Assembly: GCA_902780395.1 (NCBI GenBank)
Contig: CACZFH010000005.1
Coordinates: 1,557-65,556 of the forward strand
Direction of reading: 5' to 3'
Length of the DNA stretch: 64,000 bases
From: an uncultured Erysipelotrichaceae bacterium
GTDB taxonomy: Bacteria > Bacillota_I > Bacilli_A > RF39 > UBA660
A program made the translations under genes and the position numbers. Positions within the stretch are counted from its first letter, which is position 1, and each line of letters starts with the position of its first letter. The notes under the pieces are model-generated. The model saw only the letters and a list, made by a program, of their open reading frames with translations, did not search any database and was not told the DNA's origin. Of the stretch, positions 49,101 through 64,000 are shown one piece after another.

Positions 49101-49808
49101 TTTTTTTACTTTTTCCATATCTGTTATTACAGAGCATTTTCTTCGTTTAGATAATAATAATATTTTATCAAGTATTACTTGCGTATCTGGTAAATTTTCA
49201 TCTAATAAAGCTTCTACTAATTTTTTTGTATTAGTATATTTTATTAGTAAATCATGGTTCCCTTTTCGTAAATCTTCCAAAACAAGGAACAAGCATCCAT
49301 CTATTCTATTATTTATTATATAATCATAGAATTCTTTATCTATTACTCCATTAGTTGTTTTCAACGAAACTGCATATTTCATTAGTTCTTCATTAGGATA
49401 AAAGCCTTGATTTCTGATAATTTCATCTATGGTATACCCCATACTCAAATAGAAATCAATATCATCTTTTGAAATAACAATTGTGAAATCATCTAAATAT
49501 TCTATTTTATCTTTATAATATTTGAAAATATCATGATATATATTTTTGGGAAGAAAGAGTTGTAAAATTATAAGAATTTCTATTAATTCATTTTTTGGTA
49601 TTTTTTCTAATTTTAGGGAAGGTATAAGTTCTGGATTTGATAAATATTCACTAAGAAATGAGAAATACTTTTTAGATATTTCTTCTCTTCTAGTCGAGTT
49701 GTTTTCAGAAATTATTTCATTAATATCGGTATCTGGCCCCAATATTTCACTTATATTATCTTTAAAGTATTTAATTTCATCATATATTCTTTTTACTATA
49801 TCTTCCAT
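43101..49808 (-). CDS. Giant 2235-aa cytoplasmic repeat protein with C-terminal PI3/PI4-kinase-like catalytic motif
   Basis: AGGTGG RBS and no signal peptide. Degenerate helical modules end in L(I/V)xEG(H/Y)xxxI(K/E)(Y/H). DUF4116-like repeats occupy the middle. The C-terminus has VVDFLVCNFDCYVGNFIV...VRGVDKEQAF (nt 43449-43547), which matches type-II PI4K spacing (DYLIRNTDRGNDNWLI...IDNGLAF). Confidence 0.75.
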   Translation of the reverse strand: MEDIVKRIYDEIKYFKDNISEILGPDTDINEIISENNSTRREEISKKYFSFLSEYLSNPELIPSLKLEKIPKNELIEILIILQLFLPKNIYHDIFKYYKDKIEYLDDFTIVISKDDIDFYLSMGYTIDEIIRNQGFYPNEELMKYAVSLKTTNGVIDKEFYDYIINNRIDGCLFLVLEDLRKGNHDLLIKYTNTKKLVEALLDENLPDTQVILDKILLLSKRRKCSVITDMEKVKKLISLYGPKYIVFASDPSEELLSMVDDFNIEDYISINGDYHKSPHILKLLLNKGEYKAIEYAKPEAITQEIVEILIKSGIDLKELEKRSSHLVESLAYNKYLVSQGRYEHLRRIHDLYTNLESFDYVYSLLKTTNVNIKSETLDIIYYLLGKKDTINFNHDLSQEVAEKVVSLGFTLEDYLKSPRYDNNLLKTFIRKGDARALLIKNSVTEKEISNITYEDFLSIKSLKPNVIINKESAIKLIKEGHYDVFEHVYEEAKRPILRELGLDDITEEQYDALPEELKELRILKDKFVIPPIEEIMDRLEKNANAETISLAVKANIPYETIKKCIDNNYYGRVINCKDVIKFLQEGHLEAIKYLDTSNISKEEETMVAAEYYKGLNGKIPYDDFWPFDRNVQDLIIRYYISQGKYEIVALQEYVVTDPESLEILKKRNYSIEDFRKVPIFNIEILGKLVEEGYIDDIKEAFQAHSILLEHGEDFLTLLYRLKIPKDKISYIAEYCRIDMTRLIIKLKDSELELLQYLNLETLLQDSDTLTSIIDNLDPEKIEKVLQRKVNISAESLKIIISNMVEKGNPRFVRFYQFAGDEKVLKKALLAGYMPKIDTIENSQFLSSKIPSITFTTEEKEIIKTHIKSNPRFVIYLLDDYEKEKSLIIDCIMKEPEIFQLLTCDDATKKDIVEVIAKKDIQKVAVLFNNLDTEERINLVESYHEIVKYLPNDLITERICRIVITDYPKVIDKKSYLPDDVIKQAFEHGYKVNENSSTLAISYAIQNKKPIPAEIWNEKNFERLFKSIGNVSYEAHLEELSILFDEIYEKHKERFISAIMLSTLYKPTVLRIIGRYGYTSADYETIKNASSDSVKIYFLINLKSLEKLSPEEQLKKIGELFATTEYKKECLEWLKNHGLVSEASHLAKNNYESNPLVMISFIQGEDKDEKIIEKTKELIRKDPKKLYSLANDVPEVLSDKEIVLKIIIYDTKLYKILPVELKKDKEIIDIVLEKNIDQILDVPIDVTNYKDLCYKALSKKGQLFSYLLLMHKDKEALKIALDNYTYALNYADLSIIDDDVIKHIKNPSSISLKIMGIERVKKIISLDSFDNNNSDLMIQVLDLVLSKELYFTFDKKIIEGFINLLNQNPNIIYKNYFELLLKVDESLLTEEQIKIRDNAKRLLEEYGKVNTLEKNEVFSYELVKHVVPALGLKKSADLMKYNSEADKIIINIIKNGELDLAKAYIEIIQKHHIFEDDDKLLHFAFKYFENCKPLIKDIVDKELTPEEVSNLTKIIMNNNPYNVKTKEELTRYDEVVEQYAKEKLKSSNIHDIREYFVTVFGFTELNIFESFFNDYQLDNFPQINYALYTIKEKYGEDIAKSLSFTVEEVKVILLMKEVLETDNIDELKQLIRLGIETKGHVLDYSDIVHNITLKVRKLYNYQINSNLTKIDTLKEKQKSKTSEQRKTIIDYRGQQKEATYTIIDMDEEPFNFVVHRLFHFDSTMSDLFTKLLKNPSLWTKLDGASTLSTSSISDRGFWFLNKDDPDGVVYIFDDLPEDFLLYMYCRDLMSQHGGHTLEPTFNNNRYTDLNSLNQITCSSENGSYNEVVGYRAGVMPKAILCTGLEPNEDQVRAADYFGIPIIRVNMQKYEELKGARYRAAKESMSERATQEGIYNVMYNGIVGERLDTTINFCIDCIKKSYEEGKIDYKEMLKQLLLVRQLANRISEPNNKQIIRKVDLIIHTIALAKSVSEAEIIKMEYANMGETGIMFKLQEGEKESLLKPSVDKKQLRSQPYRAEVQKAVAKLQKIISPDTAVAVEVLGKGELRVAKQEKITLGENRDELHDWIKNRGELDPKKKRQLLQEYVVDFLVCNFDCYVGNFIVDSNDNVRGVDKEQAFRFIDDIETLDPRFSYVPNGPSRIPIYQYLFERYQTGEIDLDFSVIDKALAILEEMTDIEYEAIFRPYAESLNKEHPEIILEKIVQRKHICIEQIKGYIASIRRENPIKEGENNNGKK

Positions 49809-49926: not shown

Positions 49927-51195
49927 TTATTTTAATTTATCCAATATATTTTCTATGGTTACTATAGTAATAGTATTATTCTTAACGTCTTCAATTTCAT
50001 AGTTAATTCCATCAAACCTATTTCCAAGAATAATCATTTTAGGAGTCCCTAAAACATATACATCATTTATTTTTGAACCAATAGATAAATTTTCTCTATC
50101 ATCTATTATTGATTGAATGTTATTATCTAGTAAATAGTAATATAATTTTTCTGCTGCTTCTTTATTTTTTTCATTATAAATAATATGAACTTTGTATGGG
50201 GCAATATTATATGGTAAAACAAAACCTTTTATTTTGTTATTATCTTTGATAATGTTATTCTCTATTAGGCAAGCAATAATTCTTCCTAGACCAATTCCAT
50301 AACAACCCATATAATATGGTTTTTTCTCGTTGTTTTCATCGGTATAGTAAAGGCCCATACTCTCAGAATATTTGGTTCCTAATTGGAAGTTATTTCCTAA
50401 TTCAATGGCACTATATTCTTTTAAATCATTTATATCTACTATTCCTAATTGTTTTAGATATTCATCTTTATTTTGAAAGCTTAAAACTTCTTTATTAATA
50501 CCAATATCATTCTTTTCATCATATAAAATTTTATCTTCTCCTAAATCGGTTATTGCTTGAAATTCTTCAGCAACTTTTCCACCTATGACACCATTATCAC
50601 TTACTGTTGGGATAATTTTGATACCTATTCTTTTAAATATATTTAAATAAACTTGGTGCATTAATTTATAAGATTTTTGCATATCTTCTTCTGTTTTATC
50701 AAAAGAATAGGCATCCATCATAACAAATGTTCTTGGTCTAAATAAATAACCTCTAGTTCTTATTTCTTTTCTAAATTTTTCGTTTATTTGGTAGTATATT
50801 GCTGGAAGATTTTTATATGATTCTAACCTGTTAGAACCAAATATAGTTGCACACTCTTCAGCGGTTGGAGCAAGTCCATATTCTCCTAAGTTATTTTTGA
50901 GAGTAAACATTATGTCTCCTTCTTTAGTATAGGTATCCCATCTATTAGATTGCTCCCAAATCTTTTTAGGTTGCAATTTAGGAAATTCCACTTGAATACA
51001 ATCGGCTTTATCTAACTCTTCTATAATTATACTTTCAACATTTCTTTCTAATTTAGTCCATAGATTACCATAACCATATATACCACTTTCATATTGATAT
51101 AGTTCACCTAATTTCATTAAAATATCTTGGCCAGAATATTTTTTATCAACATCATTAAAATTTATTTTTTTGATATTTAATTTATTTAATCTCAT
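49927..51195 (-). CDS. proS: Prolyl-tRNA synthetase, bacterial type lacking the INS editing domain
   Basis: Motif 2 is FRKEIRTRGYLFRPRTFVMMDAYSF and motif 3 is GCYGIGLGRIIA; APTAEE is present. Only ~135 aa separate motifs 2 and 3 (about 280 in E. coli ProRS). Total length is 422 aa. Confidence 0.85.
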   Translation of the reverse strand: MRLNKLNIKKINFNDVDKKYSGQDILMKLGELYQYESGIYGYGNLWTKLERNVESIIIEELDKADCIQVEFPKLQPKKIWEQSNRWDTYTKEGDIMFTLKNNLGEYGLAPTAEECATIFGSNRLESYKNLPAIYYQINEKFRKEIRTRGYLFRPRTFVMMDAYSFDKTEEDMQKSYKLMHQVYLNIFKRIGIKIIPTVSDNGVIGGKVAEEFQAITDLGEDKILYDEKNDIGINKEVLSFQNKDEYLKQLGIVDINDLKEYSAIELGNNFQLGTKYSESMGLYYTDENNEKKPYYMGCYGIGLGRIIACLIENNIIKDNNKIKGFVLPYNIAPYKVHIIYNEKNKEAAEKLYYYLLDNNIQSIIDDRENLSIGSKINDVYVLGTPKMIILGNRFDGINYEIEDVKNNTITIVTIENILDKLK

Positions 51196-53763: not shown

Positions 53764-54678
53764 TTAATAAGTTATTTCATTATTAATAAACTTTATAGCT
53801 TCCGTTGCAGCTATGGCCCCATCAGAAGTTGCTGTAACTAATTGTCTTACTTCTTTGGTACGATTATCTCCAGCTACGAATATTCCTCTAACATTAGTAT
53901 TACAATTTTCTCCGGCAATTATATAACCAGAATTATCTAACTTAACTAACTTTCCAAAATTTTCATTTTCTGGTATTCTTCCTACTGCAATAAAGAGACC
54001 TTCAACTTCTATTATTCTTTTACTTCCATCTTTGTTAGTTATTTCAATACTTTCTAATTTATCATTGGCATTAAGCTTGGTAACATTACTATTATAAATG
54101 AATTCCATATTTTCTTTATCTTTTAATTGATTTAGCGTTGATTCTGCTCCTCTAAATTCATCTCTTCTATGAATTAAATATACTTTATTGACTATGTCTG
54201 TTAAATATAAAGCATCTTCAAGGGCAGTATTGCCACCACCAACAACTGCAACATTTTTTTTCTTGTAAAAGGCTCCATCACATGTAGCACAATAACTAAC
54301 TCCTTTTCCGATAAGTTCATTTTCATTTTCAATTCCTAGTTTTCTATTTTCTGAACCAGTTGCTAAAATAAGAGCTTTTGCTGCATATTTATTCTTGGTT
54401 GTTATTACTTCTTTAGTTTCATGATTATCTTTAATATCTACTACTTTTTCATAGATTATTTCTGCTCCTAAGTCTTTTACTTGATTATATAGTTTTGTTG
54501 CAAAGTCAAAACCAGAAATATGGGCTTCTACGGGGTAGTTTTCTATATCGAGGGTATTAATAATTTGTCCACCATAAGTTTTGGCTTCTAAAACTAATAC
54601 TTTTTTTGAGGCACGTCTAGCATATATTGCTGCTGTTAGTCCAGCAGGACCGGCTCCTACTATAATAATATCGTACAT
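53764..54678 (-). CDS. trxB: Thioredoxin reductase
   Basis: GAGPAGLTAAIYA FAD motif, CATCDG redox-active disulfide, GGGNTALE NADPH motif. Confidence 0.95.
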   Translation of the reverse strand: MYDIIIVGAGPAGLTAAIYARRASKKVLVLEAKTYGGQIINTLDIENYPVEAHISGFDFATKLYNQVKDLGAEIIYEKVVDIKDNHETKEVITTKNKYAAKALILATGSENRKLGIENENELIGKGVSYCATCDGAFYKKKNVAVVGGGNTALEDALYLTDIVNKVYLIHRRDEFRGAESTLNQLKDKENMEFIYNSNVTKLNANDKLESIEITNKDGSKRIIEVEGLFIAVGRIPENENFGKLVKLDNSGYIIAGENCNTNVRGIFVAGDNRTKEVRQLVTATSDGAIAATEAIKFINNEITY

Positions 54679-54992
54679 TATTCTCCCCCAATCATATCCT
54701 CTATAGCATCTTTTGACATTAGGCCTACATTTCTTTTAATTTCTTTTCCGTCTTTAAAGACTATAAGACATGGGATTGATGAAACATTGTACTTTTCAGC
54801 TAGTTCATCTTCATCATCAACATTAATAGATACAATTTTTGCACTATCATTATTAGCTGCTACTTCCTCAAGTATTGGTTTTAACATTTTACATGGTCCA
54901 CACCAGTTAGCATTAAAATCTGCTAGAACTTGTTTTTCACTTCCTAATACCTCTTTATCAAAATTATCTTTATTTACTTCTATAATTGTCAT
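54678..54992 (-). CDS. trxA: Thioredoxin
   Basis: WCGPCK active site; 104 aa. 1-nt overlaps with both neighbours. Confidence 0.9.
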   Translation of the reverse strand: MTIIEVNKDNFDKEVLGSEKQVLADFNANWCGPCKMLKPILEEVAANNDSAKIVSINVDDEDELAEKYNVSSIPCLIVFKDGKEIKRNVGLMSKDAIEDMIGGE

Positions 54993-55438
54993 TATTTTTC
55001 CTCCTTTAAAACATTTAATAATACTTTATAAATAAGTGAATAGAGCATTTCAATTTCCTTGTCTGATAAATCAATACATTTAGCCATACTATCAGGAATT
55101 GCTAATGCTTTTTCTTTAAGATTAATTCCTTTTTCGGTAATTGTTACTTCTAAATTTCTTTCATCTTTTGTTGATCTAACTCTAGTTATATATCCCTTTT
55201 TTTCTAATTTCTTAAGAAGTGGTGTTAAAGTTCCTGAGTCAAGTAATAATGCTTGACTAAGCTCCTTAACATTACTTGAATGTTTTTCCCAAAAATACAT
55301 CATAACTATATATTGCGTGTATGTTAAGTCTAGTTTTTCTAGAAGTGGTGTATATTTATGTATTATTTCTTTAGAACATAAATAGATTGGAAAACATAAT
55401 TGATTTTTTAATGTTAGAGAATCATATTTTGATTCCAT
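54992..55438 (-). CDS. MarR-family regulator, OhrR-like (N-terminal sensing Cys)
   Basis: 148 aa. LKNQLCFPIY matches the conserved OhrR LCF(A)LY cysteine context. Winged-helix core. Confidence 0.75.
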   Translation of the reverse strand: MESKYDSLTLKNQLCFPIYLCSKEIIHKYTPLLEKLDLTYTQYIVMMYFWEKHSSNVKELSQALLLDSGTLTPLLKKLEKKGYITRVRSTKDERNLEVTITEKGINLKEKALAIPDSMAKCIDLSDKEIEMLYSLIYKVLLNVLKEEK

Positions 55439-55451
55439 AGTACCTCACTCC

Positions 55452-55991
55452 CTATATTAGTTCTTGTAAATCTTTTTCTATTTCACTAGGATCAAAAGTT
55501 GGATTATATCTTTTTATGGCATTACCTTCTTTATCCACTAAAAATTTAGTAAAATTCCAAACTATATCACCTTTTTTAGTACAAGTTGTACTTATTTTGG
55601 CAATTGCCTTCATAGCCATTTTATTCTTAAGACCTTTTGCTTCTTCATTAGGTTGTTGCTCTTTTAAAATAGTAAAAACTTGACTTTCATTTTCTCCATT
55701 AACATCAATTTTAGCAAATTGATCAAATTGAGTTTTATACTTAGCTGTACAAAATTCATGAATTTCATCGTTATCTCCTGGTGCTTGGTGTCCAAATTGA
55801 TTACATGGAAAATCTAATATTTCAAAACCTTGATCATGATATTTTTCATATAACTTCTCTAATCCTTCATATTGAGGGGTAAAGCCACATCCAGTAGCAG
55901 TATTAACTACTAGAGATACTTTTCCTTTTAAAGATTTTAAATCAAACTCTTCTCCATTTCTCTTTTTAACTGTTAAATCATAAATGTTCAT
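55452..55991 (-). CDS. Glutathione peroxidase-family thiol peroxidase
   Basis: NTATGCGFTPQY (peroxidatic Cys) and FPCNQFGHQAPG motifs. Confidence 0.9.
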   Translation of the reverse strand: MNIYDLTVKKRNGEEFDLKSLKGKVSLVVNTATGCGFTPQYEGLEKLYEKYHDQGFEILDFPCNQFGHQAPGDNDEIHEFCTAKYKTQFDQFAKIDVNGENESQVFTILKEQQPNEEAKGLKNKMAMKAIAKISTTCTKKGDIVWNFTKFLVDKEGNAIKRYNPTFDPSEIEKDLQELI

Positions 55992-56249: not shown

Positions 56250-56452
56250 GTTATCACTTCCTTATTATTATTATTATATCATAGTTATTTTATTTCAAAA
56301 ATATCTTTGAAAAGTCATCTATAGTGTTTCAGAACATAGACTAGATATATATTAGACTATATTATCAGTTTTATTCTTAATAATTAGTAACTTTTAAAAA
56401 TTATAAAAATAATATAATATGAAAAAAATGATATAATAGAATTGGTGTTTAT

Positions 56453-58090
56453 ATGGAAATTAAAGAATTTAAAAGATTATTATCAAAAGCTGAGCAAGTA
56501 GTTGAGATAGGAGTAAAAAAAGGTTATTTTGAAGAAACTAGAAAAGAAGAACTTGCAAAAAAACTAGCAACTATATTTAACAATGGTATTGTTTATGACA
56601 TACCAGGTAGAGCAACATACGGTAGATACTCTCCAAGCGAGAGAAAATTATATTTTAATGTTAAAGTATTTCAAAGTGAAGAAGAAGCCTTGGTTTATAT
56701 TCTTCATGAAATTAAACATGGTCTAGATCATTATGATGATCAAATAGGATTTGAATATCATAGTGAAGGAACTGGAATAAATGAAGGTGCTACTCAAAGA
56801 TTTGCAACCGATATTGCTGAAGAAATACTTCAAATAAAATTTCAAAGAGAGACTCGTTCTTCTCTAGGTATTAATCTTAAAACCCACTTAGATGAATATC
56901 AAATAGAAGATCGATTAAACGAATTATTATGTATTGCATTGGGGATTAGTATGGAAGAATTTATTAAAATGCAAAATGATCCACAAAAAGAAAAATTTAA
57001 GAATATTATTGTTAAATTTAATCAATATGCTAGTTTTGAAGTATTTAAAAAATTATTAGATAAAATTTATAAGATTCAAGAAAAAACATGGGTTGATGCA
57101 AATAATAATTTGTTAGAAGAAGAAAAAGAACCGACTCCTGAACAAACACAAAAAGCTATAGATTTAATAAGCCAATGTAAAAGGATTTTAATACAATATG
57201 CCAAAAAAGCTAATCCAAAAGCCGTAGAAATCATAGAAAAAGAATCTTTTATAGCAAAGGATAAATATGGTGAAATTATTAGGACCTCTGATGTTGAATT
57301 AGATAATAATTCAGAAAGTTCTAAATTATTAGATGAACTATCAGATTTAAGTATCATTAGTCAATCAGAATATCTTGATTATCAAAAAAATGTTTTGAGT
57401 CAAATTATTAGTAAGACCATAAGTAATGACTGTGATATAGTATTTGTTACAGGGTTTAGATATGGATTTGAAAATGACGATAAAATAGTTTATTTTAGAA
57501 AAGGTGATTATTATTTTAAACTAATAATTCCAATGAATAATGATGGAACTATGGATTTAGAAAACTTTGATGTTCAGAAAGTAAATGATATAAATGAAAT
57601 AAAAGAAGAAATTGAGGATTGCGAATATGAATTTGGTATTGTAGCTAATGGTCCAGAATATGCAAAAATTTTACAAATGTGTGGAGAAGAATTAAGAGCT
57701 AAAAGTGTAATTAAGAAATGGGATTATTATTTAAGTAGACAAGATGAATTAGCTGAAATTATAAAAAGAGTATCTCAAATAGATGATACAACTAATGAAG
57801 AACTCGAGCAATTAGCAGAAGTGGTCGAAGAAGGAAGAATGGACCTTCAAGCTAAACAAGAAATTTCTGATACAACAATAACTATTAGTTTTAATAGTAT
57901 TATTATAGATGAAAATGGTATATTATTTATAAATCCATATGGAGGTATGGAATTAGTTGCTCCAGAAGAGGAAGAAAAATATTTATCCAAAGTAAGAGAA
58001 GCTGTAGCTTCTGGAGAATTATTATTAACTAAAAACCAATTAAAGCTTTTAGAATCTTTCAGTAATAATATGGCTTCTAAAAAAGGGTAA
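56453..58090 (+). CDS. Cytoplasmic putative zinc metalloprotease (gluzincin motif)
   Basis: 545 aa with no signal peptide. HEIKH (res 85-89) is followed 21 residues later by GINEGATQRF. Compare thermolysin HELTH...GAINEAISDIF. Extended -10 TGATATAAT upstream. Confidence 0.55.
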   Translation: MEIKEFKRLLSKAEQVVEIGVKKGYFEETRKEELAKKLATIFNNGIVYDIPGRATYGRYSPSERKLYFNVKVFQSEEEALVYILHEIKHGLDHYDDQIGFEYHSEGTGINEGATQRFATDIAEEILQIKFQRETRSSLGINLKTHLDEYQIEDRLNELLCIALGISMEEFIKMQNDPQKEKFKNIIVKFNQYASFEVFKKLLDKIYKIQEKTWVDANNNLLEEEKEPTPEQTQKAIDLISQCKRILIQYAKKANPKAVEIIEKESFIAKDKYGEIIRTSDVELDNNSESSKLLDELSDLSIISQSEYLDYQKNVLSQIISKTISNDCDIVFVTGFRYGFENDDKIVYFRKGDYYFKLIIPMNNDGTMDLENFDVQKVNDINEIKEEIEDCEYEFGIVANGPEYAKILQMCGEELRAKSVIKKWDYYLSRQDELAEIIKRVSQIDDTTNEELEQLAEVVEEGRMDLQAKQEISDTTITISFNSIIIDENGILFINPYGGMELVAPEEEEKYLSKVREAVASGELLLTKNQLKLLESFSNNMASKKG

Positions 58091-58205: not shown

Positions 58206-58760
58206 TTATAAATATTTCAAATCTTCTTCAGCAAATTCTAAAATATAGCTGTCATTATTGTATTTTAATAAGTCTTTATTAATATTTTTATTATCAGTTC
58301 TTACTATAAAAGAATTTTCATAATTGATATTTTTAAAATAATAATTTCCTTCATCACTATTAATACTTTCAAACAGTCCTGCTTGTGGATCCATAACAAA
58401 TACTTCATTATCAATATTTAGTAAAAGAAATTCGTGTCCTCCAGAAGATTTTTGCCAATTAATATGACAATAAAATCTTTTGCCTTTTAACACTTTTTTT
58501 ATTAATTCTTGCTTATTATCAAACTTTATTTTCCGATGGTATTTAACAATATTTGCATTTGCATATTTAAAAATAATGTCTCTAGGTGAGTAAACCGGTC
58601 TAGGTAATACATTAATGTTTCTGAATTGTGCTTCTGCACACCAAACGCATAGTAAGCAATTTTGATTACCAACCGGTTCTTTTCTATCTTTTTCAACTTT
58701 ACTTTTTATTATATTTGAAATATTTTTTGCTAAAAGTATAGTATTACTATTTTTTTTCAC
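58206..58760 (-). CDS. Stand-alone papain-fold domain protein (toxin glutamine-deamidase/Tox-PL1-like)
   Basis: 184 aa. GTG start after an AGGTGA RBS. NQNCLLCVWCAEAQFRN (NC..C....E...R), then SGGHEFLLL and VMDPQAG, giving Cys/His/Asp in the order and context I recall for the Gln_amidase papain-fold toxin family. Confidence 0.45.
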   Translation of the reverse strand: MKKNSNTILLAKNISNIIKSKVEKDRKEPVGNQNCLLCVWCAEAQFRNINVLPRPVYSPRDIIFKYANANIVKYHRKIKFDNKQELIKKVLKGKRFYCHINWQKSSGGHEFLLLNIDNEVFVMDPQAGLFESINSDEGNYYFKNINYENSFIVRTDNKNINKDLLKYNNDSYILEFAEEDLKYL

Positions 58761-58933: not shown

Positions 58934-58970
58934 GCTGGTGGTATCTAATTTTCTTTTTTAATACTTTTTC
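58934..58970. repeat. Conserved intergenic element, copy E1
   Basis: GCTGGTGGTATCTAAttttCTTTTTTAATACTTTTTC. Matches E2 at 14/15 and 19/20 positions. About 105 bp upstream of the predicted -35 (TTGAAG, 58825-58830) of the 184-aa gene. Confidence 0.7.
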
Positions 58971-59127
58971 TTCTAAATATCTATTTTATTCTTCGTCAAA
59001 TTGATTAATTCTTAATTCTTCATATAATACTTTTATAATTTTTTGCAATTTTTGTTCATCCATAAAATCACCTATTATTAAATAGTTTTAACATATATTT
59101 TCTTTTTATCTTTGTTAATGAAAGCAA

Positions 59128-60141
59128 TTAGCTTACCTCAACATAATTTTCATCATACTTTTCATAGATATAAGATGTTTGATTACTTCCCTTAATATGA
59201 TAAAAATTACATATCTCCGTATTTTTCAAGCAAGCTTTAGTCACTGTATAAACTATAGAGTCAGAAGACTTAACAGTCCCATCTATATTCAAAGTAAAAC
59301 GATCTAGAATAACAGGATTAACAAAATCTAACCTATCATCCGAATCTGTAAAGTATGTTTCAAGATTAAAATTTCTATAGACTATTGGTTTTTCTCCCGC
59401 CATAAAAGAATTCTTACGATGTGCAAAAACATAATGCCCTTTTTTATCATAATGAATGATTTTTATAACTTGAGTCTTCGTTGTGATAATTTGATTATGT
59501 TTATTATATGAATACTTTTCTTTATATTGCTTGTCTTCATTGCTTGAATACATATAGCCATCATCTTTAAAGACAATATCTCCCTCTGCTGGTTGAAAAT
59601 TAGAAAAAGAAACATTAACAAACTCAGGATAAGAAACAGATTTAGTTAAATAAAAACCATAACCTATAAAAATTAAGGATACACTCAATATAACAAAAAC
59701 TATTTTATAAGAAAAAGAAATATGACAATCTTCTTTCTTTTTTTTCTGGAACAAAATTACTAACAAATAAATCGCAATGATATTAGCAAAAATAAGCAAT
59801 ATGCAGATAAAATCTTTCATATATTGCTTAAAAGATAATAAATTAATAACTAATAATCCTATTACTGGTGAAAAAGTACTAAGAATAGCTAAAATCGACA
59901 CAATATTTTTATCTTTTGTAAGTGCATCCACACTAACTGCAAAAGACCATAAGAAAATAGGAATTGCAAAAATAAAAAAGTAGATATAAAACAAAAATAA
60001 TAAAGAATAAAAAAAATCCGTACCTTCAAAGAAAATACCTAATAAAATAAATAATATAGGAGTTAACCCTAAAATAATTCCTAATATTCCCTTTTCTTTA
60101 CTCTCCTTTACTAGTTCTGATTTAGCTTTTTCTGGATTCAT
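59128..60141 (-). CDS. Membrane protein with C-terminal soluble domain
   Basis: 337 aa. About 6 TM helices in the first 170 aa, then a beta-rich domain. No family recognised. Confidence 0.55.
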   Translation of the reverse strand: MNPEKAKSELVKESKEKGILGIILGLTPILFILLGIFFEGTDFFYSLLFLFYIYFFIFAIPIFLWSFAVSVDALTKDKNIVSILAILSTFSPVIGLLVINLLSFKQYMKDFICILLIFANIIAIYLLVILFQKKKKEDCHISFSYKIVFVILSVSLIFIGYGFYLTKSVSYPEFVNVSFSNFQPAEGDIVFKDDGYMYSSNEDKQYKEKYSYNKHNQIITTKTQVIKIIHYDKKGHYVFAHRKNSFMAGEKPIVYRNFNLETYFTDSDDRLDFVNPVILDRFTLNIDGTVKSSDSIVYTVTKACLKNTEICNFYHIKGSNQTSYIYEKYDENYVEVS

Positions 60142-60156
60142 ATCAACACCTTCTTT

Positions 60157-60450
60157 TTATTCATATTCATAAATAGTATTTTTATTATACACAATGACCT
60201 GAGGAACTTTTCCTTTAGAGAACTCTACAAATGTATCCGTAATTTCTCCTTGAACATAATCATGTAATTGTTGGATAATTAATGCTTCTACCTCATTAGA
60301 TGTAATAGCTTCTTGTCCCTCTTCAGCCAAAATATTTACTTTATTTTCATATATTTTTAAATCTTTTGTTATCTGGTATTTTTCATAGTTTTTAGAAGAG
60401 ATACTAATATTAACCATTTTAGATTTAGGAACGATTGTTAAATTATCCAT
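60157..60450 (-). CDS. Small soluble protein upstream of the membrane protein
   Basis: Track ORF is 60157..60459. ATG 60450 follows an AAGGTG RBS. 97 aa. Promoter ATGACA-18-TATAAT with a TG extension at about 60490-60518. Confidence 0.5.
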   Translation of the reverse strand: MDNLTIVPKSKMVNISISSKNYEKYQITKDLKIYENKVNILAEEGQEAITSNEVEALIIQQLHDYVQGEITDTFVEFSKGKVPQVIVYNKNTIYEYE

Positions 60451-60616
60451 TTTTAACACCTTGTTTTTAGTTTTACTTCTAATTTAATTATATCATATTT
60501 TTGGAATTGCTGTCATGAACTATTATGCGTTTAAGTTTGGCACTTTTTCGTCAATGGTTTTGTTAAATCATTATACTTTCTCTCTTTTATTATTTCTTTT
60601 TCACTTCTTATCCATG

Positions 60617-60680
60617 GCTGATGGTATCTAAAAAGGTATCTAAAATACTTTTTTAATGCTTTTTCGCAATTTTTTAGTAA
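60617..60680. repeat. Conserved intergenic element, copy E2
   Basis: GCTGATGGTATCTAAAAAGGTATCTAAAATACTTTTTTAATGCTTTTTCGCAATTTTTTAGTAA. Two direct GGTATCTAAAA units 12 bp apart. About 105 bp upstream of the -35 of the 97-aa/337-aa operon. Confidence 0.7.
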
Positions 60681-60684
60681 GTTT

Positions 60685-61608
60685 TTATATTTGTCCATTA
60701 TATTTATACAATTTTTTTACTATTGGTGAATATTCTACTTTTGATAAATCTTTTGACTTTTTTTCAGCAATATACTTTGTTAAATACATACTTTGTATAA
60801 GCATCTGGTAATCATTTAATATTTGATCTTCAAATTTTGAATCAATAATGACAATTCTACTATAATAATGTTTTAGTTCCTCTAACATCATTCTATCAAA
60901 TTCAGTATTCCTATTATAATAAATTGCTATACCATTATAATTAATACCAAGTGTACTTCTTCCATGGCAATAAGAATACTTATCATGAACTATTGGTATT
61001 CCAATTCCAGATTCAACCATAGTTGATTCTAAGTATTTTGATGCTGTGCTTGTATCATAGCCACTAAATATTTCATAGACGTCACTTTCTAAATCAAAAT
61101 TGAATGGTGATTCTTCTATACAATCTAATATTAGACTATCTTGTCCATTCAAATAATAATTTATTAATATACTTACTGGAATTAATGTTGCACCAAGTGA
61201 TATAAAACTTCTTTCTTTATCAATAGTAGTATTATATTTTAAATATGTTACATCACTATCATCAAACGAATTATTGGATAGCAAATATTTTCTCAATCCT
61301 TTTAAAAATGATAATTCTACTTCATAATTATTTCCACTATAGCTACATGCTACTACATTTCTAAATGTGTCATTATTTCGATATAAAAAATCTCTTGGTT
61401 CACTATTTATTGAAATGATACCATTTTTAGCATTAATAACCTTAGCTCCAAATTCACTTACTACACTTGATCCTCCAACACCACTAAATAATGTTGGCTC
61501 ATCCAATTTAGATAATTCATTTCTAATAAACTCTAAATCAGTATTATCTAATGAATCAACTACCCTTTCTTTTAAAAAATCAAAATTTGTTTTCATGTCC
61601 TTTTCCAT
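60685..61608 (-). CDS. Hypothetical protein partnered with WYL regulator (weak SIS-like G-x-G-x-S motif)
   Basis: Track ORF is 60685..61626. ATG 61608 follows an AGGAGA RBS. 307 aa. LFSGVGGSSVVSEFGAKV loosely recalls a SIS phosphosugar-binding loop. Otherwise an orphan. Confidence 0.5.
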   Translation of the reverse strand: MEKDMKTNFDFLKERVVDSLDNTDLEFIRNELSKLDEPTLFSGVGGSSVVSEFGAKVINAKNGIISINSEPRDFLYRNNDTFRNVVACSYSGNNYEVELSFLKGLRKYLLSNNSFDDSDVTYLKYNTTIDKERSFISLGATLIPVSILINYYLNGQDSLILDCIEESPFNFDLESDVYEIFSGYDTSTASKYLESTMVESGIGIPIVHDKYSYCHGRSTLGINYNGIAIYYNRNTEFDRMMLEELKHYYSRIVIIDSKFEDQILNDYQMLIQSMYLTKYIAEKKSKDLSKVEYSPIVKKLYKYNGQI

Positions 61609-61660
61609 AAAAAAATCTCCTTTCAAGTTAAATATAACTCAAAAGGAGGAAGTATTTCGT

Positions 61661-62263
61661 CTACTCATACTTTTCATTTAATAATTCATATTTTATTATT
61701 CTCTTTAACTCAAAATGTCTAATGTCTTGCTTCTTTTCACAAAATGCTGCGCAATACCAACCATATTGAAATAAAAACATTTCTGCTGGATCTATTACTC
61801 TTTCGTTTTCACCTTTACCATAAGAGTAATATAATATTTTAACTTTCCTCTTTTCTTTTATAGCTCTTGTTAATAAATTATATTTCTTATCTGTTTCATC
61901 TTTTAAATTTAATTCCTTTTCTTCTTGTTTACTTCCTATATATACACCTTTAATTTTATCTTGAAGCAGTATAAGTTCATCTTTTATGTCTTTAGCTTTT
62001 TCATTAGCAATATATCTATCTAATAATTTGGCATCTTTCATTTTGAATTTTCTAACAGGCATACGAACTGATTGGTTTAATACATATCCACCATATGGTC
62101 CCATTATTGTATCAATGTATATTCCTGCTTTTTCTAAATCTTCTTTATATGCTCTAATCATTCTCTCAGAAACTTCAAGTTTATTAGAAAGTTCATTTAT
62201 GCTATATTTTCTTCCGGACTGTAATAACTGGAGCATCGTTAATACGTTGGATATTTTAGACAT
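61661..62263 (-). CDS. WYL-domain transcriptional regulator (HTH + WYL)
   Basis: Track start is 62305; ATG 62263 follows a GGTGG RBS. N-terminal HTH (NVLTMLQLLQSGRKYSINELSNKLEVSERMIRAYKEDL) and a C-terminal WYL-type segment (VIDPAEMFLFQYGWYCAAFCEKKQDIRHFELKRI). Confidence 0.8.
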   Translation of the reverse strand: MSKISNVLTMLQLLQSGRKYSINELSNKLEVSERMIRAYKEDLEKAGIYIDTIMGPYGGYVLNQSVRMPVRKFKMKDAKLLDRYIANEKAKDIKDELILLQDKIKGVYIGSKQEEKELNLKDETDKKYNLLTRAIKEKRKVKILYYSYGKGENERVIDPAEMFLFQYGWYCAAFCEKKQDIRHFELKRIIKYELLNEKYE

Positions 62264-62307
62264 AAAACCACCCATATAAATTATATCACATTTTTTATCT
62301 TTCAAAA

Positions 62308-62366
62308 ATACCTATGAAAGGGTATCTAAAGTGAAATTTTAGTAATTTTTCGCAATTTTTTAGCAA
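62308..62366. repeat. Conserved intergenic element, copy E3
   Basis: ATACC-N8-GGTATCTAAAGTGAAATTTTAGTAATTTTTCGCAATTTTTTAGCAA. Shares GGTATCTAAA (10/10) and TTTTTCGCAATTTTTTAG (18/18) with E2. Abuts the TGaTATAAT promoter (62280-62288) of the WYL gene. Confidence 0.7.
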
Positions 62367-62413: not shown

Positions 62414-62554
62414 TTATTTGCCGTAGCACTGCTTATATTTCTTGCCCGATCCACATGCGGGCCAAATTAGTATATTATCCATACTTATAATATTATGAGT
62501 ATTTCCTTTATTTTCAAGGGTTTGTGGACAGGTAACTTTTTGTATTTTAAATAT
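62414..62554 (-). pseudogene. Relic encoding a degenerate SEC-C metal-binding motif
   Basis: The minus frame reads ...SMDNILIWPACGSGKKYKQCYGK* (stop 62414-62416). Compare the SEC-C consensus CPCGSGKKYKxCCG. Two of the four Zn ligands are lost, there is no RBS, and only 46 open codons remain. This accounts for the locally GC-rich patch. Confidence 0.4.
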
Positions 62555-62660: not shown

Positions 62661-63254
62661 TTATAATTTGTTATATACTTTTTTTACAATTTGTCTATCC
62701 CAACCTATTGAAAGTCTTTCTTTATTAATAAAAAGTTTTAATAACGGTTTTTCTTCAACTATATTTAAAAAATATTTAAGAATATAAACATAATCATCAA
62801 AATTATTTTCAATTAAACTATATATTTTAATTAAATGAGGCTGTTTAAATTCATAGCCATTATAATAATCATTTATTTGAGGACACAAGAAATTTACTGC
62901 TCCACCTATTCCTTGTAATTCCATCTTATTAGCATCTTTATTTTTGGGTTCTTCAACAATTTTAACATGTAGTATTAAGTGTTCTAATGCATTACAATAA
63001 ACTAGTCTATCCGCTTTTTGATATTCAAATGGATTATTAGGAGCAAATTTATCATTACTTAACATGATTGCTTTGTCTTCATCAATATGATGGCAATAGA
63101 GTCCTTCACTTGTTCTAGAAACTTTTGAATTTTTTGATTTGCATGATTCTGTACAGAAGTAATCATACTTTGCCGGTCCATACTTTTTTAGTAAATACTC
63201 AACTAATTCGCTATATGTCATATCTAATTGTTTTTTTATCTCAATACTTTCCAT
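62661..63254 (-). CDS. Hypothetical protein with HNH-like His/Asn pattern
   Basis: 197 aa. GLYCHHIDEDK...NNPFEYQKADRLVYCNALEHLILH loosely fits an HNH beta-beta-alpha pattern (HH...N...H). Low confidence. Confidence 0.35.
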   Translation of the reverse strand: MESIEIKKQLDMTYSELVEYLLKKYGPAKYDYFCTESCKSKNSKVSRTSEGLYCHHIDEDKAIMLSNDKFAPNNPFEYQKADRLVYCNALEHLILHVKIVEEPKNKDANKMELQGIGGAVNFLCPQINDYYNGYEFKQPHLIKIYSLIENNFDDYVYILKYFLNIVEEKPLLKLFINKERLSIGWDRQIVKKVYNKL

Positions 63255-63265
63255 TTTTTCACCTC

Positions 63266-63991
63266 TTATTTGTTTATTGTTTTAATTATCTCTTCACCAT
63301 GAGTTTTAATCTTAATTGCTGTTAGTATATTAGCATTTTTAAGTTCTTCAACTGTTTTAGGCCTCAATTCAACTAATTTATCTAATTCTTCATTTGTAAA
63401 TACATAGTACGCAGGAATATTCATTTCATTTGATCTGTTTTTTCTAAATTCAATTAATTTATCTTTTAAATCATCTTTTATTGAAATACTAATATTATTG
63501 CAATATTTTTCTTTGTAATAATCATAATAGTTAATTTCCTCCTTAGCAGATAAATCAACATATGATTGAGCCATTTCTTCCATACCTTTTTTAGATTCAA
63601 GATATTCATCATTACCTCTATGATCTATATCATATTCAATTTGTCTAATTAAAGCATCTGCTCTTAGTATTTTATATTTCATCTCTTTTGGAGCTCTGTT
63701 TGTGTTTAATATAGTATCTTGATTAGCTGCTACAACCAATATTCTTCTATAATAATCAAAATTCTTTGAGGCAAAGAACTTCTTAATAGCTGACGAATTG
63801 CTTTCCCATATTTTTCTAATTACTTCTCTTTGAGCCTCAACTTGCCTTAAAGGAGAATACATTCCCTTTTTTATCTTCTTACCATTAATACTAAATTCTC
63901 TAATAAAATCTCCTTTATCAGTTACAGTGATATTACCAACCAAATTTTTGCATTCAACATAATAAGTATATACTGGAGTAATAATTACATG
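63266..63991 (-). CDS. NERD-domain protein with C-terminal HRDC-like helical domain; N-terminus interrupted at window edge
   Basis: The frame is open from 63991 (HVIITPVYTYYVECKNLVGNITV is the NERD core, cf. viE.Kn..G.i). It is preceded by an in-frame TAG at 63992-63994. The C-terminus IEFRKNRSNEMNIPAYYVFTNEELDKLVELRPKTVEELKN is HRDC-like. Confidence 0.6.
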   Translation of the reverse strand, partial: HVIITPVYTYYVECKNLVGNITVTDKGDFIREFSINGKKIKKGMYSPLRQVEAQREVIRKIWESNSSAIKKFFASKNFDYYRRILVVAANQDTILNTNRAPKEMKYKILRADALIRQIEYDIDHRGNDEYLESKKGMEEMAQSYVDLSAKEEINYYDYYKEKYCNNISISIKDDLKDKLIEFRKNRSNEMNIPAYYVFTNEELDKLVELRPKTVEELKNANILTAIKIKTHGEEIIKTINK

Positions 63992-64000
63992 CTATTTCAT

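What the first reader, a model, noticed from the sequence alone, without database searches (positions are those of the whole stretch)
60685..62263. WYL regulator plus 307-aa orphan as a two-gene module
WYL-domain HTH regulators (BrxR/CapW-type) are established gatekeepers of phage-defence operons. Here the WYL gene is followed 52 nt later by an orphan protein with only a faint SIS-like G-x-G-x-S loop. The pair is bracketed by elements E3 and E2. I do not recognise the partner from any named defence system.
Basis: partly seen in the sequence, partly recalled or inferred. Interest (0 to 1): 0.65.

Follow-up and report, generated by a model that had tools for sequence, protein, structure and literature searches.

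The report
WYL regulator, RNA hairpin, SIS enzyme
A small WYL-type regulator gene and a very divergent sugar-phosphate-isomerase-like enzyme gene, joined by a conserved RNA hairpin that hides the enzyme's ribosome-binding site, form an uncharacterised operon widespread in uncultured gut bacteria, and an anti-phage role is possible but not shown.

Summary
On the minus strand, a 200-aa wHTH-WYL regulator (61661-62263) is followed 52 nt later by a 307-aa protein (60685-61608), with 80%-identical 50-nt repeats on both sides.

The partner is not an orphan. It has more than 1,500 homologues. A confident AlphaFold model (pLDDT 94.9) is a double-SIS fold like GlmS-isomerase, NagB-II and FrlB. The phosphate loops and the catalytic Glu/His pair, 16 residues apart, are invariant.

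The pairing is strongly conserved. A full WYL gene lies directly upstream in 69 of 80 species-level loci. Relatives with about 30% identity keep the pairing and add a PfkB kinase or a Ham1 NTP pyrophosphatase, either as a neighbour or fused.

A new finding is that the 52-nt spacer encodes a conserved terminator-like RNA hairpin that buries the SIS Shine-Dalgarno. It occurs in 81 loci, shows strong covariation, and has no Rfam family.

The evidence on defence is mixed. The window's clade places the pair in a hypervariable secA-prfB hotspot with SoFic, RhuM-like genes and integrases. Against that, there is no PADLOC, phage or plasmid hit, sequence conservation is housekeeping-like, and distant relatives sit in housekeeping contexts.

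My best reading is a signal-gated enzyme operon acting on phosphosugars or nucleotide-derived metabolites. Defence remains an untested rival.

The parts
61661..62263 (-). WYL regulator gene, 200 aa, with architecture wHTH (HTH_11) - helical linker - WYL. The protein ends 8 residues after the WYL domain, so it has no WCX domain.
   Evidence: Pfam and PADLOC hits. The nearest PDB matches cover the WYL domain only: PafBC at 4.5e-8, and BrxR and CapW at 0.003-0.35. Identity is 41-65% across lineages in which the SIS proteins share only about 30%.
60685..61608 (-). Gene for a 307-aa divergent double-SIS enzyme of the GlmS-isomerase / NagB-II / FrlB type.
   Evidence: AF2 model with pLDDT 94.9 and pTM 0.93. 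Foldseek against PDB gives TM 0.72-0.77 to 2aml, 8fdb, 8eym, 1mos and 2vf4, and also finds FrlB 3eua/8glr. A family profile hits FrlB 3eua at E 2.7e-5. G45, G46, S47, E199, H215 and G216 are invariant.
61606..61663 (-). Conserved leader RNA. It runs UAG-ACGAAAUAcUUC, then a 14-bp hairpin (61617-61648), then a U7 tract and the AUG. The 3' arm of the stem is the SIS Shine-Dalgarno (AAAGGAG). The hairpin is terminator-like and sequesters the RBS.
   Evidence: Terminator scan. RNA fold of -19.7 kcal/mol with z = -4.26. Covariance model R1 finds one hit per locus in 81 of 91 sources. 95% of cells are paired and 12 of 14 pairs show changes on both sides. There are 92 G-U/U-G cells against 5 A-C/C-A cells. 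No Rfam family matches.
62280..62288 (-). TG-extended -10 promoter element (TGATATAAT), 16 nt upstream of the WYL ATG. The 5' UTR is very short, with the RBS GGTGG.
   Evidence: Read from the sequence. The same TGATATAA box is kept upstream of WYL in most loci, although the sequence further upstream is not conserved.
62317..62366 (-). Upstream copy of the repeated 'E' element (AAAAATTGCGAAAAA ... TTTAGATACC).
60631..60680 (-). Downstream copy of the 'E' element, immediately after the SIS stop codon. It carries a tandem TTTAGATACC.
   Evidence: Same-strand copies also lie upstream of unrelated genes in other loci. It is therefore a hotspot or promoter element, not a part specific to this module.
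62414..62482 (-). Degenerate relic of the secA 3' end (MDNILIWPACGSGKKYKQCYGK*). It marks the ancestral order secA -> WYL -> SIS.
   Evidence: Translation, compared with the SecA C-termini ...CPCGSGKKYKQCCGK* in related loci.

Best explanation
The locus is a two-gene operon belonging to a widespread, so far undescribed operon family with the layout wHTH-WYL regulator -> conserved leader hairpin -> double-SIS enzyme. Other lineages add a PfkB-family kinase or a Ham1-type NTP pyrophosphatase.

Shown:
- The gene pair and the RNA hairpin co-occur across the whole family.
- The 307-aa protein has the GlmS-isomerase/FrlB fold. Its phosphate-binding serines and its general-base Glu and general-acid His, exactly 16 residues apart, are invariant. 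It is therefore most likely a working enzyme that isomerises, deaminates or deglycates a phosphorylated sugar.
- The SIS ribosome-binding site forms the 3' arm of a terminator-like stem, so expression of the enzyme is off by default at the RNA level.

Inferred:
- The WYL protein senses a nucleic-acid-type signal, as its characterised relatives do (single-stranded DNA from damage or infection). It then relieves the block, either at its own promoter or at the conserved leader.
- The enzyme converts a phosphosugar or a nucleotide-derived sugar phosphate. In relatives that substrate is supplied by the kinase (from a sugar or nucleoside) or by the Ham1 enzyme (from a non-canonical NTP).
- The operon is therefore a signal-gated metabolic or nucleotide-housecleaning response. 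It is mostly inherited vertically at the secA-prfB locus, rather than being a demonstrated phage-defence system.
For: Module conservation:
- A full-length WYL gene lies directly upstream on the same strand in 69 of 80 species-representative loci.
- The same pairing is seen in the 89%-identical loci L001-L008.

Conservation in relatives with 25-40% identity:
- WYL -> PfkB::SIS fusion (L089).
- WYL -> Ham1::SIS fusion (L091; L119, with a second Ham1).
- WYL-SIS-Ham1 (L094-96).
- WYL-SIS-PfkB (L099 and L100).
- WYL-PfkB-SIS-HD (L098).
- The fusion domains were confirmed by Pfam.

Enzyme:
- AF2 model and Foldseek search and a family profile against PDB.
- Invariant GGS47, E199 and H215.
- Published work states that GlmS, FrlB and FraB share a catalytic Glu and His exactly 16 residues apart, plus conserved S46/S91/S93/G94 (PMC10285752; PMC12359202).

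Hairpin:
-.
- The motif is absent from the six loci that lack an intact WYL gene: L018, L054, L064, L065, L069, and L037, which retains only a WYL remnant.

Housekeeping-like behaviour:
- Mean pairwise identity is 69% for SIS, 68.5% for PrfB and 79% for WYL.
- Spearman correlation of SIS with PrfB identities is 0.59.
- There are no relatives in GenBank phages, PLSDB plasmids or IMG/VR, and the SIS protein has no PADLOC hit.

The SIS gene persists without WYL in a subclade. This argues that it is not a toxin needing its partner.

Metatranscriptome contigs cover both genes and cross the spacer. This is weak evidence, because the library type is uncertain.
Against: - No substrate, ligand or phenotype is known, and the window's version has no kinase or NTPase partner nearby. 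The only Ham1 homologue in the window is 25 kb away.
- All characterised WYL regulators control DNA-damage or defence genes (papers listed), not metabolism.
- In the window's clade the pair sits in a hypervariable island. There are 280 distinct non-housekeeping neighbour clusters within +/-5 genes. These include SoFic (neighbour cluster seen in 11 loci; representative E 2e-90), PDC-S05/RhuM, PDC-S23 and integrases. In the window itself the neighbours are a NERD-HRDC gene and a papain-fold toxin-like gene.
- Tight default-off gating is what one expects for a harmful effector.
- The covariation alignment was fitted to the model structure, so it leans towards that structure.
Confidence: 0.5

Rival explanations
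1. A dedicated anti-phage defence system. WYL acts as gatekeeper and keeps the SIS effector silent. On infection, the WYL domain senses single-stranded nucleic acid and the enzyme is made. The enzyme then depletes or converts an essential phosphosugar or nucleotide-derived metabolite, for example a fructose-6-P / glucosamine-6-P type precursor, or it destroys or creates a nucleotide signal. This stops phage growth or aborts the infection.
For: - WYL regulators of the BrxR/CapW family gate BREX, CBASS and other systems and sense ssDNA (papers PMC9122601, PMC9122588 and PMC11662680, listed).
- The pair lies in a hypervariable hotspot with SoFic, RhuM-like/PDC-S05, PDC-S23 and integrases.
- In the window, a NERD-HRDC gene and a toxin-like gene are nearby.
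- The terminator/RBS hairpin imposes tight default-off control.
- A Ham1-like protein (KomB) is a nucleotide-sensing component of the Kongming system, and the operon Ham1 matches the KomB chain at E 7.8e-13.
Against: - The SIS protein has no PADLOC hit.
- No copies occur on phages, plasmids or viral contigs.
- Sequence conservation equals that of RF2, and inheritance partly follows the host.
- Distant relatives lie among housekeeping genes such as ileS, rpsO-pnp and ATP synthase.
- The SIS gene survives without WYL in a subclade.
- The regulator lacks the WCX domain of the defence-associated family.
- No rigorous enrichment test was possible.
Confidence: 0.25
2. An ordinary catabolic pathway for amino sugars or Amadori compounds, analogous to FrlB/FrlD or AgaS/LacC. 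A PfkB kinase and a double-SIS deglycase or deaminase feed a dietary sugar derivative into glycolysis, and the WYL protein is merely the local repressor.
For: - The fold and catalytic dyad match FrlB, FraB, NagB-II and AgaS.
- PfkB kinases are adjacent or fused in several relatives.
- JGI names one fusion 'FrlB-like'.
- The hosts are gut organisms.
Against: - No transporter or PTS genes accompany the pair in any locus examined.
- The window's version has no kinase.
- The kinases cannot be assigned to any characterised subfamily; all NCBIfam scores are far below the curated cut-offs.
- The recurrent Ham1 NTP pyrophosphatase partner, including fusions, has no place in sugar catabolism.
- No WYL regulator is known to control a catabolic operon.
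Confidence: 0.12
3. The SIS protein is not an enzyme here. It is a ligand-sensing or protein-binding partner, as in RpiR/MurR sensor domains, GKRP or DiaA, and it works together with the WYL protein as a two-component regulator of other genes.
For: SIS domains do serve as sensors in RpiR/MurR regulators (the MurR SIS appears among the PDB hits). WYL and SIS identities co-vary (Spearman 0.77).
Against: - The catalytic Glu and His and the phosphate loop are invariant across 57 diverse members.
- Fusions are to enzymes (PfkB, Ham1), not to DNA-binding domains.
- The SIS gene persists alone in some genomes.
Confidence: 0.05
4. A toxin-antitoxin-like pair, in which the WYL protein neutralises or represses a toxic SIS protein and so stabilises a mobile island.
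For: A small regulator gene lies upstream of a tightly gated second gene, inside an island region.
Against: - The SIS gene occurs without WYL.
- The pair is absent from plasmids and phages.
- It sits at a conserved chromosomal position with housekeeping-like conservation.
- The fold is that of an enzyme with metabolic partners.
Confidence: 0.03

Closest known systems
BrxR / CapW family of wHTH-WYL-WCX transcriptional repressors of BREX, CBASS and other defence systems
   Same: An N-terminal winged HTH plus a WYL domain. The gene lies directly upstream of, and on the same strand as, the gene it presumably controls. It is often found in variable islands.
   Different: - The window protein has 200 aa, against 291-299 aa for the solved BrxR and CapW chains.
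- It stops 8 residues after the WYL domain, so it has no WCX dimerisation/allostery domain.
- The downstream gene is not a known defence gene.
- The conserved cis-element lies between the regulator and its target as an RNA hairpin, not as a palindromic operator in the promoter.
FrlB / FraB deglycases with the FrlD / FraD PfkB kinases, and the wider GlmS-isomerase, NagB-II and AgaS double-SIS enzymes
   Same: - Two SIS subdomains, Ser-rich phosphate loops, and a catalytic Glu and His 16 residues apart.
- In relatives, partnership with a PfkB kinase.
   Different: - Only 11-16% identity to solved structures.
- The window protein does not reach the Pfam SIS threshold.
- No transporter accompanies it, and no GntR/RpiR-type regulator.
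- A Ham1 NTP pyrophosphatase serves as an alternative partner.
- It is regulated by a WYL protein and an RNA hairpin.
Kongming (KomA/KomB/KomC) nucleotide-signalling defence system
   Same: A Ham1-like non-canonical purine NTP pyrophosphatase fold is used in a multi-gene system outside normal housecleaning. The operon Ham1 of L094 matches the KomB chain at E 7.8e-13.
   Different: There is no deaminase and no SIR2 effector. The window's own module has no Ham1 gene. The operon Ham1 is closer to archaeal XTP/dITP pyrophosphatases (E 1.7e-25).
Protein- or ligand-controlled terminator/RBS-sequestering leaders (PyrR, TRAP, LicT-type attenuation) and the RNA-binding WYL1 accessory protein of Cas13d
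   Same: A terminator-like stem contains the Shine-Dalgarno of the regulated gene. It is preceded by an invariant single-stranded stretch that could be a protein-binding site. WYL domains bind single-stranded nucleic acids (own knowledge, and the papers).
   Different: No competing antiterminator structure was found; one candidate helix showed no covariation. No binding data exist. The leader is only about 57 nt long and has no Rfam family.

Membership tests
WYL-domain transcription factor, BrxR/CapW type (wHTH-WYL-WCX) | N-terminal winged helix-turn-helix | tested here: met
   Pfam HTH_11 at aa 8-60, E 5.3e-9, score above the gathering threshold.
WYL-domain transcription factor, BrxR/CapW type (wHTH-WYL-WCX) | WYL domain | tested here: met
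   Pfam WYL at aa 128-192, E 8.7e-18. PADLOC WYL model at E 7.9e-30.
WYL-domain transcription factor, BrxR/CapW type (wHTH-WYL-WCX) | C-terminal WCX extension domain | tested here: not met
   The protein ends at aa 200, 8 residues after the WYL domain. All 20 aligned homologues end at the same point or add at most 10 residues. Solved BrxR and CapW chains are 291-299 aa.
WYL-domain transcription factor, BrxR/CapW type (wHTH-WYL-WCX) | Sits upstream of a recognised defence system | tested here: not met
   The downstream 307-aa protein has no PADLOC family at E<=0.1.
WYL-domain transcription factor, BrxR/CapW type (wHTH-WYL-WCX) | Binds single-stranded DNA through the WYL domain and represses its operon | not testable with these tools
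   This needs EMSA or anisotropy measurements and reporter assays.
Double-SIS enzymes of the GlmS-isomerase / NagB-II / FrlB / AgaS type | Two tandem SIS (alpha-beta-alpha) subdomains | tested here: met
   AF2 model with pLDDT 94.9. Foldseek TM 0.72-0.77 over the full length to 2aml, 8fdb, 1mos and 2cb0.
Double-SIS enzymes of the GlmS-isomerase / NagB-II / FrlB / AgaS type | Phosphate-binding Ser/Thr loops (G-x-G-x-S and S-x-S-G) | tested here: met
   GGS47 is invariant. S89-Y-S91-G92 is conserved in the family alignments. The counterparts S46, S91, S93 and G94 are reported for FrlB.
Double-SIS enzymes of the GlmS-isomerase / NagB-II / FrlB / AgaS type | Catalytic Glu (general base) and His (general acid) exactly 16 residues apart | tested here: met
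   E199 and H215 are invariant in 57 diverse members. They align with the E...HG motif of FrlB 3eua. The rule is stated in PMC10285752.
Double-SIS enzymes of the GlmS-isomerase / NagB-II / FrlB / AgaS type | Passes the Pfam SIS (PF01380) gathering score | tested here: not met
   The window protein has no Pfam hit at E<=0.1. Distant family members do pass (gathering score 25): P0220 at 32.8 bits, P0241 at 32.0, P0227 at 27.7 and P0188 at 32.5.
Double-SIS enzymes of the GlmS-isomerase / NagB-II / FrlB / AgaS type | Measured isomerase, deaminase or deglycase activity | not testable with these tools
   This needs an enzyme assay.
FrlB/FrlD-type fructosamine utilisation locus | Adjacent PfkB kinase plus transporter and GntR-type regulator | tested here: not met
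   The window has no PfkB gene. No transporter accompanies the pair in any locus. The regulator is WYL.
Named anti-phage defence system (PADLOC-DB v2) | Effector protein matches a system model | tested here: not met
   The SIS protein matches 0 families. Only the generic WYL models hit the regulator.
Cis-regulatory RNA: intrinsic terminator / RBS-sequestering hairpin | Stable stem followed by a U-tract, with the Shine-Dalgarno inside the stem | tested here: met
   14-bp stem, U7 tract, and AAAGGAG in the 3' arm. Fold energy -19.7 kcal/mol, z = -4.26.
Cis-regulatory RNA: intrinsic terminator / RBS-sequestering hairpin | Pairing kept by compensatory changes, with RNA-type strand asymmetry | tested here: met
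   - 95% of cells paired, against about 50% when the partner is slid.
- 12 of 14 pairs have changes on both sides.
- 65 cells show compensatory change, against 16.5 in shuffles.
- 92 G-U cells against 5 A-C cells.
- Caveat: the alignment was fitted to the model.
Cis-regulatory RNA: intrinsic terminator / RBS-sequestering hairpin | Actual termination or translational control in vivo | tested here: inconclusive
   Metatranscriptome contigs cross the hairpin, but the libraries are of uncertain type and contigs carry no depth profile.

The most novel reading that the evidence does not exclude
The minimal wHTH-WYL protein may act on RNA. Its Sm-like WYL domain would bind the invariant single-stranded GACGAAAUA stretch, and/or the hairpin with its U-tail, on its own transcript. 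On sensing a nucleotide or single-stranded nucleic-acid signal, it would switch the terminator/RBS hairpin and so turn on the enzymes. The enzymes (double-SIS with a PfkB kinase or a Ham1 NTPase) would then form a previously unknown pathway that destroys or transforms a non-canonical nucleotide or its sugar phosphate. That pathway would serve either genome housecleaning or a new nucleotide-centred anti-phage immunity.
Probability: 0.15. Interest if true: 0.8.

Novelty: new variant of a known kind. Interest (0 to 1): 0.58.

Why it matters
WYL regulators are emerging as the sensors that link nucleic-acid damage or infection to bacterial responses. Only the long wHTH-WYL-WCX class has been studied, and only with DNA operators.

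This locus defines three things:
- A compact WYL class that is more conserved than its target.
- An unannotated double-SIS enzyme family (253 clusters at 50% identity) that is tied to a kinase or to a non-canonical-NTP pyrophosphatase.
- A conserved leader hairpin with no Rfam entry.

Together these give a directly testable system for asking what WYL domains sense and how they act. They also point to a possible new branch of nucleotide or phosphosugar metabolism, or of immunity, in abundant but uncultured gut Bacilli.

Tried and rejected
- **Single-sequence searches for the 307-aa protein.** Pfam, PHROGs, PADLOC and PDB gave nothing useful. Only profiles and structure resolved it.
- **RNAalifold on the plain MAFFT alignment of spacers.** It predicted no structure, because indels put the stems out of register. 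This was solved with a covariance model.
- **The 'E' repeats as a WYL operator or as the ends of a mobile cassette.** Rejected. Most loci with near-identical WYL proteins lack them upstream of WYL. In other loci they precede unrelated genes.
- **A small helix (AAGUAU/AUACUU) spanning the WYL stop codon.** No covariation between the Lys codon and the spacer base, so dropped.
- **Internal promoter in the spacer.** The spacing does not fit.
- **Phage, plasmid and viral-contig homologues.** None found. The 17-mer motif hits in IMG/VR were spurious; the best one lies inside a phage structural gene.
- **Scan of metagenome contigs with a distant sub-alignment.** It returned only one locus.
- **The ~115-aa N-terminal extension of the 424-aa variants.** No Pfam or PDB similarity.
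- **Assigning the PfkB kinases to a substrate class.** This failed; all NCBIfam scores were far below the cut-offs.
- **Strain-level presence/absence of the module.** All 9 contigs sharing the window's TrxB showed the same arrangement, so the test was uninformative.
Full report
**Observation.** The window has about 27% G+C, and nearly all of its genes are on the minus strand. At the given coordinates there are two minus-strand genes.
- The first runs from ATG 62263 to the stop at 61661-61663 and encodes 200 aa. Pfam finds HTH_11 (aa 8-60) and WYL (aa 128-192), and a full-length PADLOC 'WYL' model matches at E 7.9e-30.
- After a 52-nt spacer, the second runs from ATG 61608 to the stop at 60685-60687 and encodes 307 aa.
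- A 50-nt direct repeat with 80% identity lies just upstream of the first gene (62317-62366) and just downstream of the second (60631-60680).

The one correction concerns 'orphan'. The 307-aa protein has no Pfam, PHROG or PADLOC family. It does have 1,529 homologues in the 90%-clustered collection and 253 clusters at 50% identity. Nearly all come from uncultured gut or rumen organisms and are named 'hypothetical'.

**What the 307-aa protein is.**
- An alignment of 57 diverse members gave an AlphaFold model with pLDDT 94.9 and pTM 0.93.
- Foldseek against the PDB returns only double-SIS proteins over the full length: Lmo0035 (2aml), NagB-II (8fdb/8eym), the GlmS isomerase domain (1mos, 2vf4), FrlB (3eua, 8glr) and the archaeal GlcN6P deaminase (2cb0). 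TM scores are 0.72-0.77 at 11-16% identity.
- A family profile finds FrlB (3eua) at E 2.7e-5.
- Several distant members pass the Pfam SIS threshold themselves.
- The invariant residues are G45, G46, S47, E199, H215 and G216.
- In GlmS, FrlB and FraB the general-base Glu and general-acid His are 'exactly 16 amino acids apart', and the phosphate is held by S46/S91/S93/G94 (PMC10285752; PMC12359202).
- E199 and H215 are 16 apart and align with the E...HG of 3eua. GGS47 and S89-x-S91-G92 match the serine loops.

The protein is therefore most likely a working phosphosugar isomerase, deaminase or deglycase of a new, very divergent subfamily.

**The pair is a conserved module.**
- A scan of one genome per GTDB species found 192 relatives. 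The best 80 loci are almost all MAGs labelled Bacilli, Tenericutes, Erysipelotrichaceae or 'Clostridium sp. CAG:594'.
- A full-length WYL gene lies directly upstream on the same strand in 69 of the 80.
- Of the remaining loci, some are cut by contig ends or carry remnants, and five have none.
- The regulator is unusually conserved. It shows 41-65% identity between lineages whose SIS proteins share only about 30%, and the HTH region is nearly invariant.

**The wider family links the SIS enzyme to nucleotide or sugar phosphorylation.** Family members carry N-terminal fusions to a PfkB kinase (about 650 aa) or to a Ham1 NTP pyrophosphatase (493-543 aa). Gene neighbourhoods of relatives with 25-40% identity show these layouts:
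- WYL -> PfkB::SIS (L089).
- WYL -> Ham1::SIS (L091).
- WYL -> Ham1::SIS -> Ham1 (L119).
- WYL-SIS-Ham1 (L094-96).
- WYL-SIS-PfkB (L099, and L100 followed by a PAP2 gene).
- WYL-PfkB-SIS-HD (L098).

Only two relatives lacked WYL. L092 sits behind Glf and a HAD protein, which is a glycan-like context. L097 is the other. The kinases cannot be assigned to a known substrate class. The Ham1 proteins resemble archaeal XTP/dITP pyrophosphatases and, more weakly, KomB of the Kongming system. A kinase and an NTP pyrophosphatase can both generate a monophosphorylated product. That is the simplest way to reconcile the two alternative partners, but it is an inference.

**A conserved leader RNA (new here).**
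- The 52-nt spacer reads UAG-ACGAAAUACUUC-[CUCCUUUUGAGUUA-UAUU-UAACUUGAAAGGAG]-AUUUUUUU-AUG.
- The terminator scan flags it. It folds at -19.7 kcal/mol, with z = -4.26 against shuffles.
- The 3' arm of the stem is the Shine-Dalgarno of the SIS gene.
- The 33 other distinct spacers with the short ~57-nt layout fold the same way.
- A covariance model built from eight sequences finds exactly one hit per locus in 81 of 91 sources, always just after the WYL gene. These include the distant operons L090/91, L094, L098 and L100.
- On that alignment 95% of cells pair, against about 50% when the partner is slid. Twelve of 14 pairs change on both sides. Compensated cells number 65, against 16.5 in shuffles. 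The caveat is that the alignment was fitted to the model.
- G-U/U-G cells outnumber A-C/C-A cells 92 to 5. This is what pairing in RNA of the sense strand predicts. It is not what a DNA palindrome read by a dimeric protein predicts.
- The single-stranded 5' stretch (U)AGACGAAAUA is nearly invariant. It is kept even where the stop codon has moved (L051, L067 type) or where another gene precedes it (L070).
- The six loci without an intact WYL gene (five have none; L037 keeps only a remnant) have no motif.
- Rfam has no such family.
- By contrast, the promoter region upstream of WYL is not conserved beyond a TG-extended -10 box.

The conserved regulatory element of this family therefore sits between the regulator and its target. 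By default it blocks expression of the enzyme. What opens it is unknown. The WYL protein, whose relatives bind single-stranded nucleic acids (papers), is the obvious candidate.

**Genomic context.**
- In many species the order is hpf-secA-[WYL-SIS]-prfB-ftsEX.
- On both sides of the pair there is extreme variability. Within +/-5 genes there are 280 distinct non-housekeeping protein clusters.
- The commonest neighbour is SoFic (neighbour cluster seen in 11 loci; its representative scores E 2e-90 against the PADLOC model). Others include RhuM/PDC-S05, PDC-S23, phage-type integrases, GNAT, NUDIX and HD proteins.
- In the window a degenerate relic of the secA 3' end (MDNILIWPACGSGKKYKQCYGK*, 62414-62482) still precedes the WYL promoter.
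- Upstream of the relic lie a SAV1803-like gene and a NERD-HRDC gene. Downstream lie strain-specific genes, including a papain-fold toxin-like protein.
- The pair therefore looks like a resident of the secA-prfB interval around which mobile cargo accumulates, rather than cargo itself.
- Consistent with that, mean pairwise identity is 69% for SIS and 68.5% for PrfB, and 79% for WYL. SIS identities correlate with PrfB identities at rho 0.59, compared with 0.89 for PrfB against SecA.
- No relatives exist in GenBank phages, PLSDB plasmids or IMG/VR. The structural matches in viruses are giant-virus GlmS enzymes.
- Distant operons sit among housekeeping genes: ileS, rpsO-pnp and atp.
- Metatranscriptome contigs from rumen and gut samples cover both genes and cross the spacer. 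The library types are uncertain, so this is only weak evidence for co-transcription.

**Interpretation.** The best-supported reading is a signal-gated enzyme operon.
- A compact WYL sensor-regulator and a default-off leader hairpin control a catalytically competent double-SIS enzyme.
- In relatives the enzyme works together with a kinase or a non-canonical-NTP pyrophosphatase.
- That points to a phosphosugar or a nucleotide-derived sugar phosphate as the substrate.

The defence reading remains a serious rival (about 0.25). In its favour are the WYL precedent, the island context, the tight gating and the Kongming precedent for Ham1. Against it are the housekeeping-like conservation, the absence from mobile elements, the housekeeping contexts of distant relatives and the survival of SIS without WYL. 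A plain FrlB/FrlD-like catabolic role is less likely, because there are no transporters, the Ham1 link is unexplained and WYL control would be unusual. Sensor-only and toxin-antitoxin readings are unlikely.

**Comparison with known systems.**
- The regulator is a WYL protein, but it fails the WCX criterion of the BrxR/CapW family.
- The enzyme meets the fold and active-site criteria of the GlmS/FrlB superfamily, but not the Pfam threshold and not the FrlB locus layout.
- The leader meets the criteria for a terminator/RBS hairpin with covariation, but it has no described family.
- I found no paper that connects WYL with SIS, PfkB or Ham1.

I therefore rate it a new variant of known kinds. It combines a WYL-gated operon, a new effector family and a new cis-element, and it is of moderate to high interest because every step is directly testable.

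Noticed in passing
window 62414-62482 (-): A 22-codon mini-ORF, MDNILIWPACGSGKKYKQCYGK*. It is a degenerate copy of the SecA C-terminal zinc motif (...CPCGSGKKYKQCCGK* in related genomes). It looks like a scar showing that secA once lay directly upstream of the WYL gene and that DNA was later inserted at the secA 3' end.
   Followed up: partly
window 62317-62366, 60631-60680, about 58940-59053, 56273-56326 (all minus strand); also L010, L018, L020, L023: A repeated intergenic element (AAAAATTGCGAAAAA ... one or two copies of TTTAGATACC) that is always on the gene strand. It precedes successive unrelated gene cassettes in this hotspot. It could be a shared promoter/operator or a recombination site. 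It is not specific to the WYL module.
   Followed up: partly
window 63266-64000 (-) and 62661-63254 (-): The 225-aa ORF at the window edge is the C-terminal part of a 332-aa NERD + HRDC protein, seen whole in L116. The gene next to it is a SAV1803-related protein (NCBIfam E 8e-49). Both lie between the secA relic and the rest of the chromosome.
   Followed up: partly
window 58206-58760 (-), 59128-60141 (-), 60157-60459 (-), 56453-58090 (+): Strain-specific genes lie downstream of the pair. They are singletons among 88 related loci. They comprise a weak papain-fold glutamine-deamidase toxin match (E 0.004), a 337-aa multi-pass membrane protein, a 100-aa protein, and a 545-aa protein with an HExxH motif and a weak SprT match on the opposite strand. 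This may be a toxin/immunity-type cassette.
   Followed up: no
L022, L024-L034, L036, L038, L039, L041, L045, L050, L077 (the 424-aa form of the SIS protein): About 18 of the 80 loci carry a ~115-aa N-terminal extension on the SIS protein, rich in Cys, Tyr and Trp. It has no Pfam or PDB similarity. In these loci the leader hairpin precedes the extended ORF.
   Followed up: partly
L054, L065 (also L064, L069): A subclade keeps the SIS gene at the secA-prfB locus but has lost both the WYL gene and the leader hairpin. In L054 and L065 a 496-510-aa protein with an XRE-type HTH follows the SIS gene instead.
   Followed up: no
window 34930-35493 (-); L071 about 6035-6643, L074 about 5180-5710: The window encodes a Ham1/RdgB homologue 25 kb from the module, with 34% identity to the operon-linked Ham1 of L094. 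In two related loci a Ham1 gene lies 2-4 genes upstream of WYL.
   Followed up: no
window 61664-61693 (last 10 codons of the WYL gene): This stretch has the lowest synonymous-site diversity of the whole WYL gene (0.41 bits, against 0.5-1.2 elsewhere). The constrained RNA element may therefore extend into the coding 3' end.
   Followed up: partly
L098 6021-6092: In the WYL-PfkB-SIS-HD operon the leader hairpin is followed by a 23-codon small ORF before the kinase gene, which has its own ribosome-binding site. This could be a leader peptide or an assembly frameshift.
   Followed up: no
window 43101-49808 (-): A 2,235-aa protein whose only recognisable feature is one DUF4116 repeat. It is followed by a class II aminoacyl-tRNA-synthetase-like gene (49927-51195). 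A gpx-marR-trx-trxB redox operon lies at 53764-55991.
   Followed up: no
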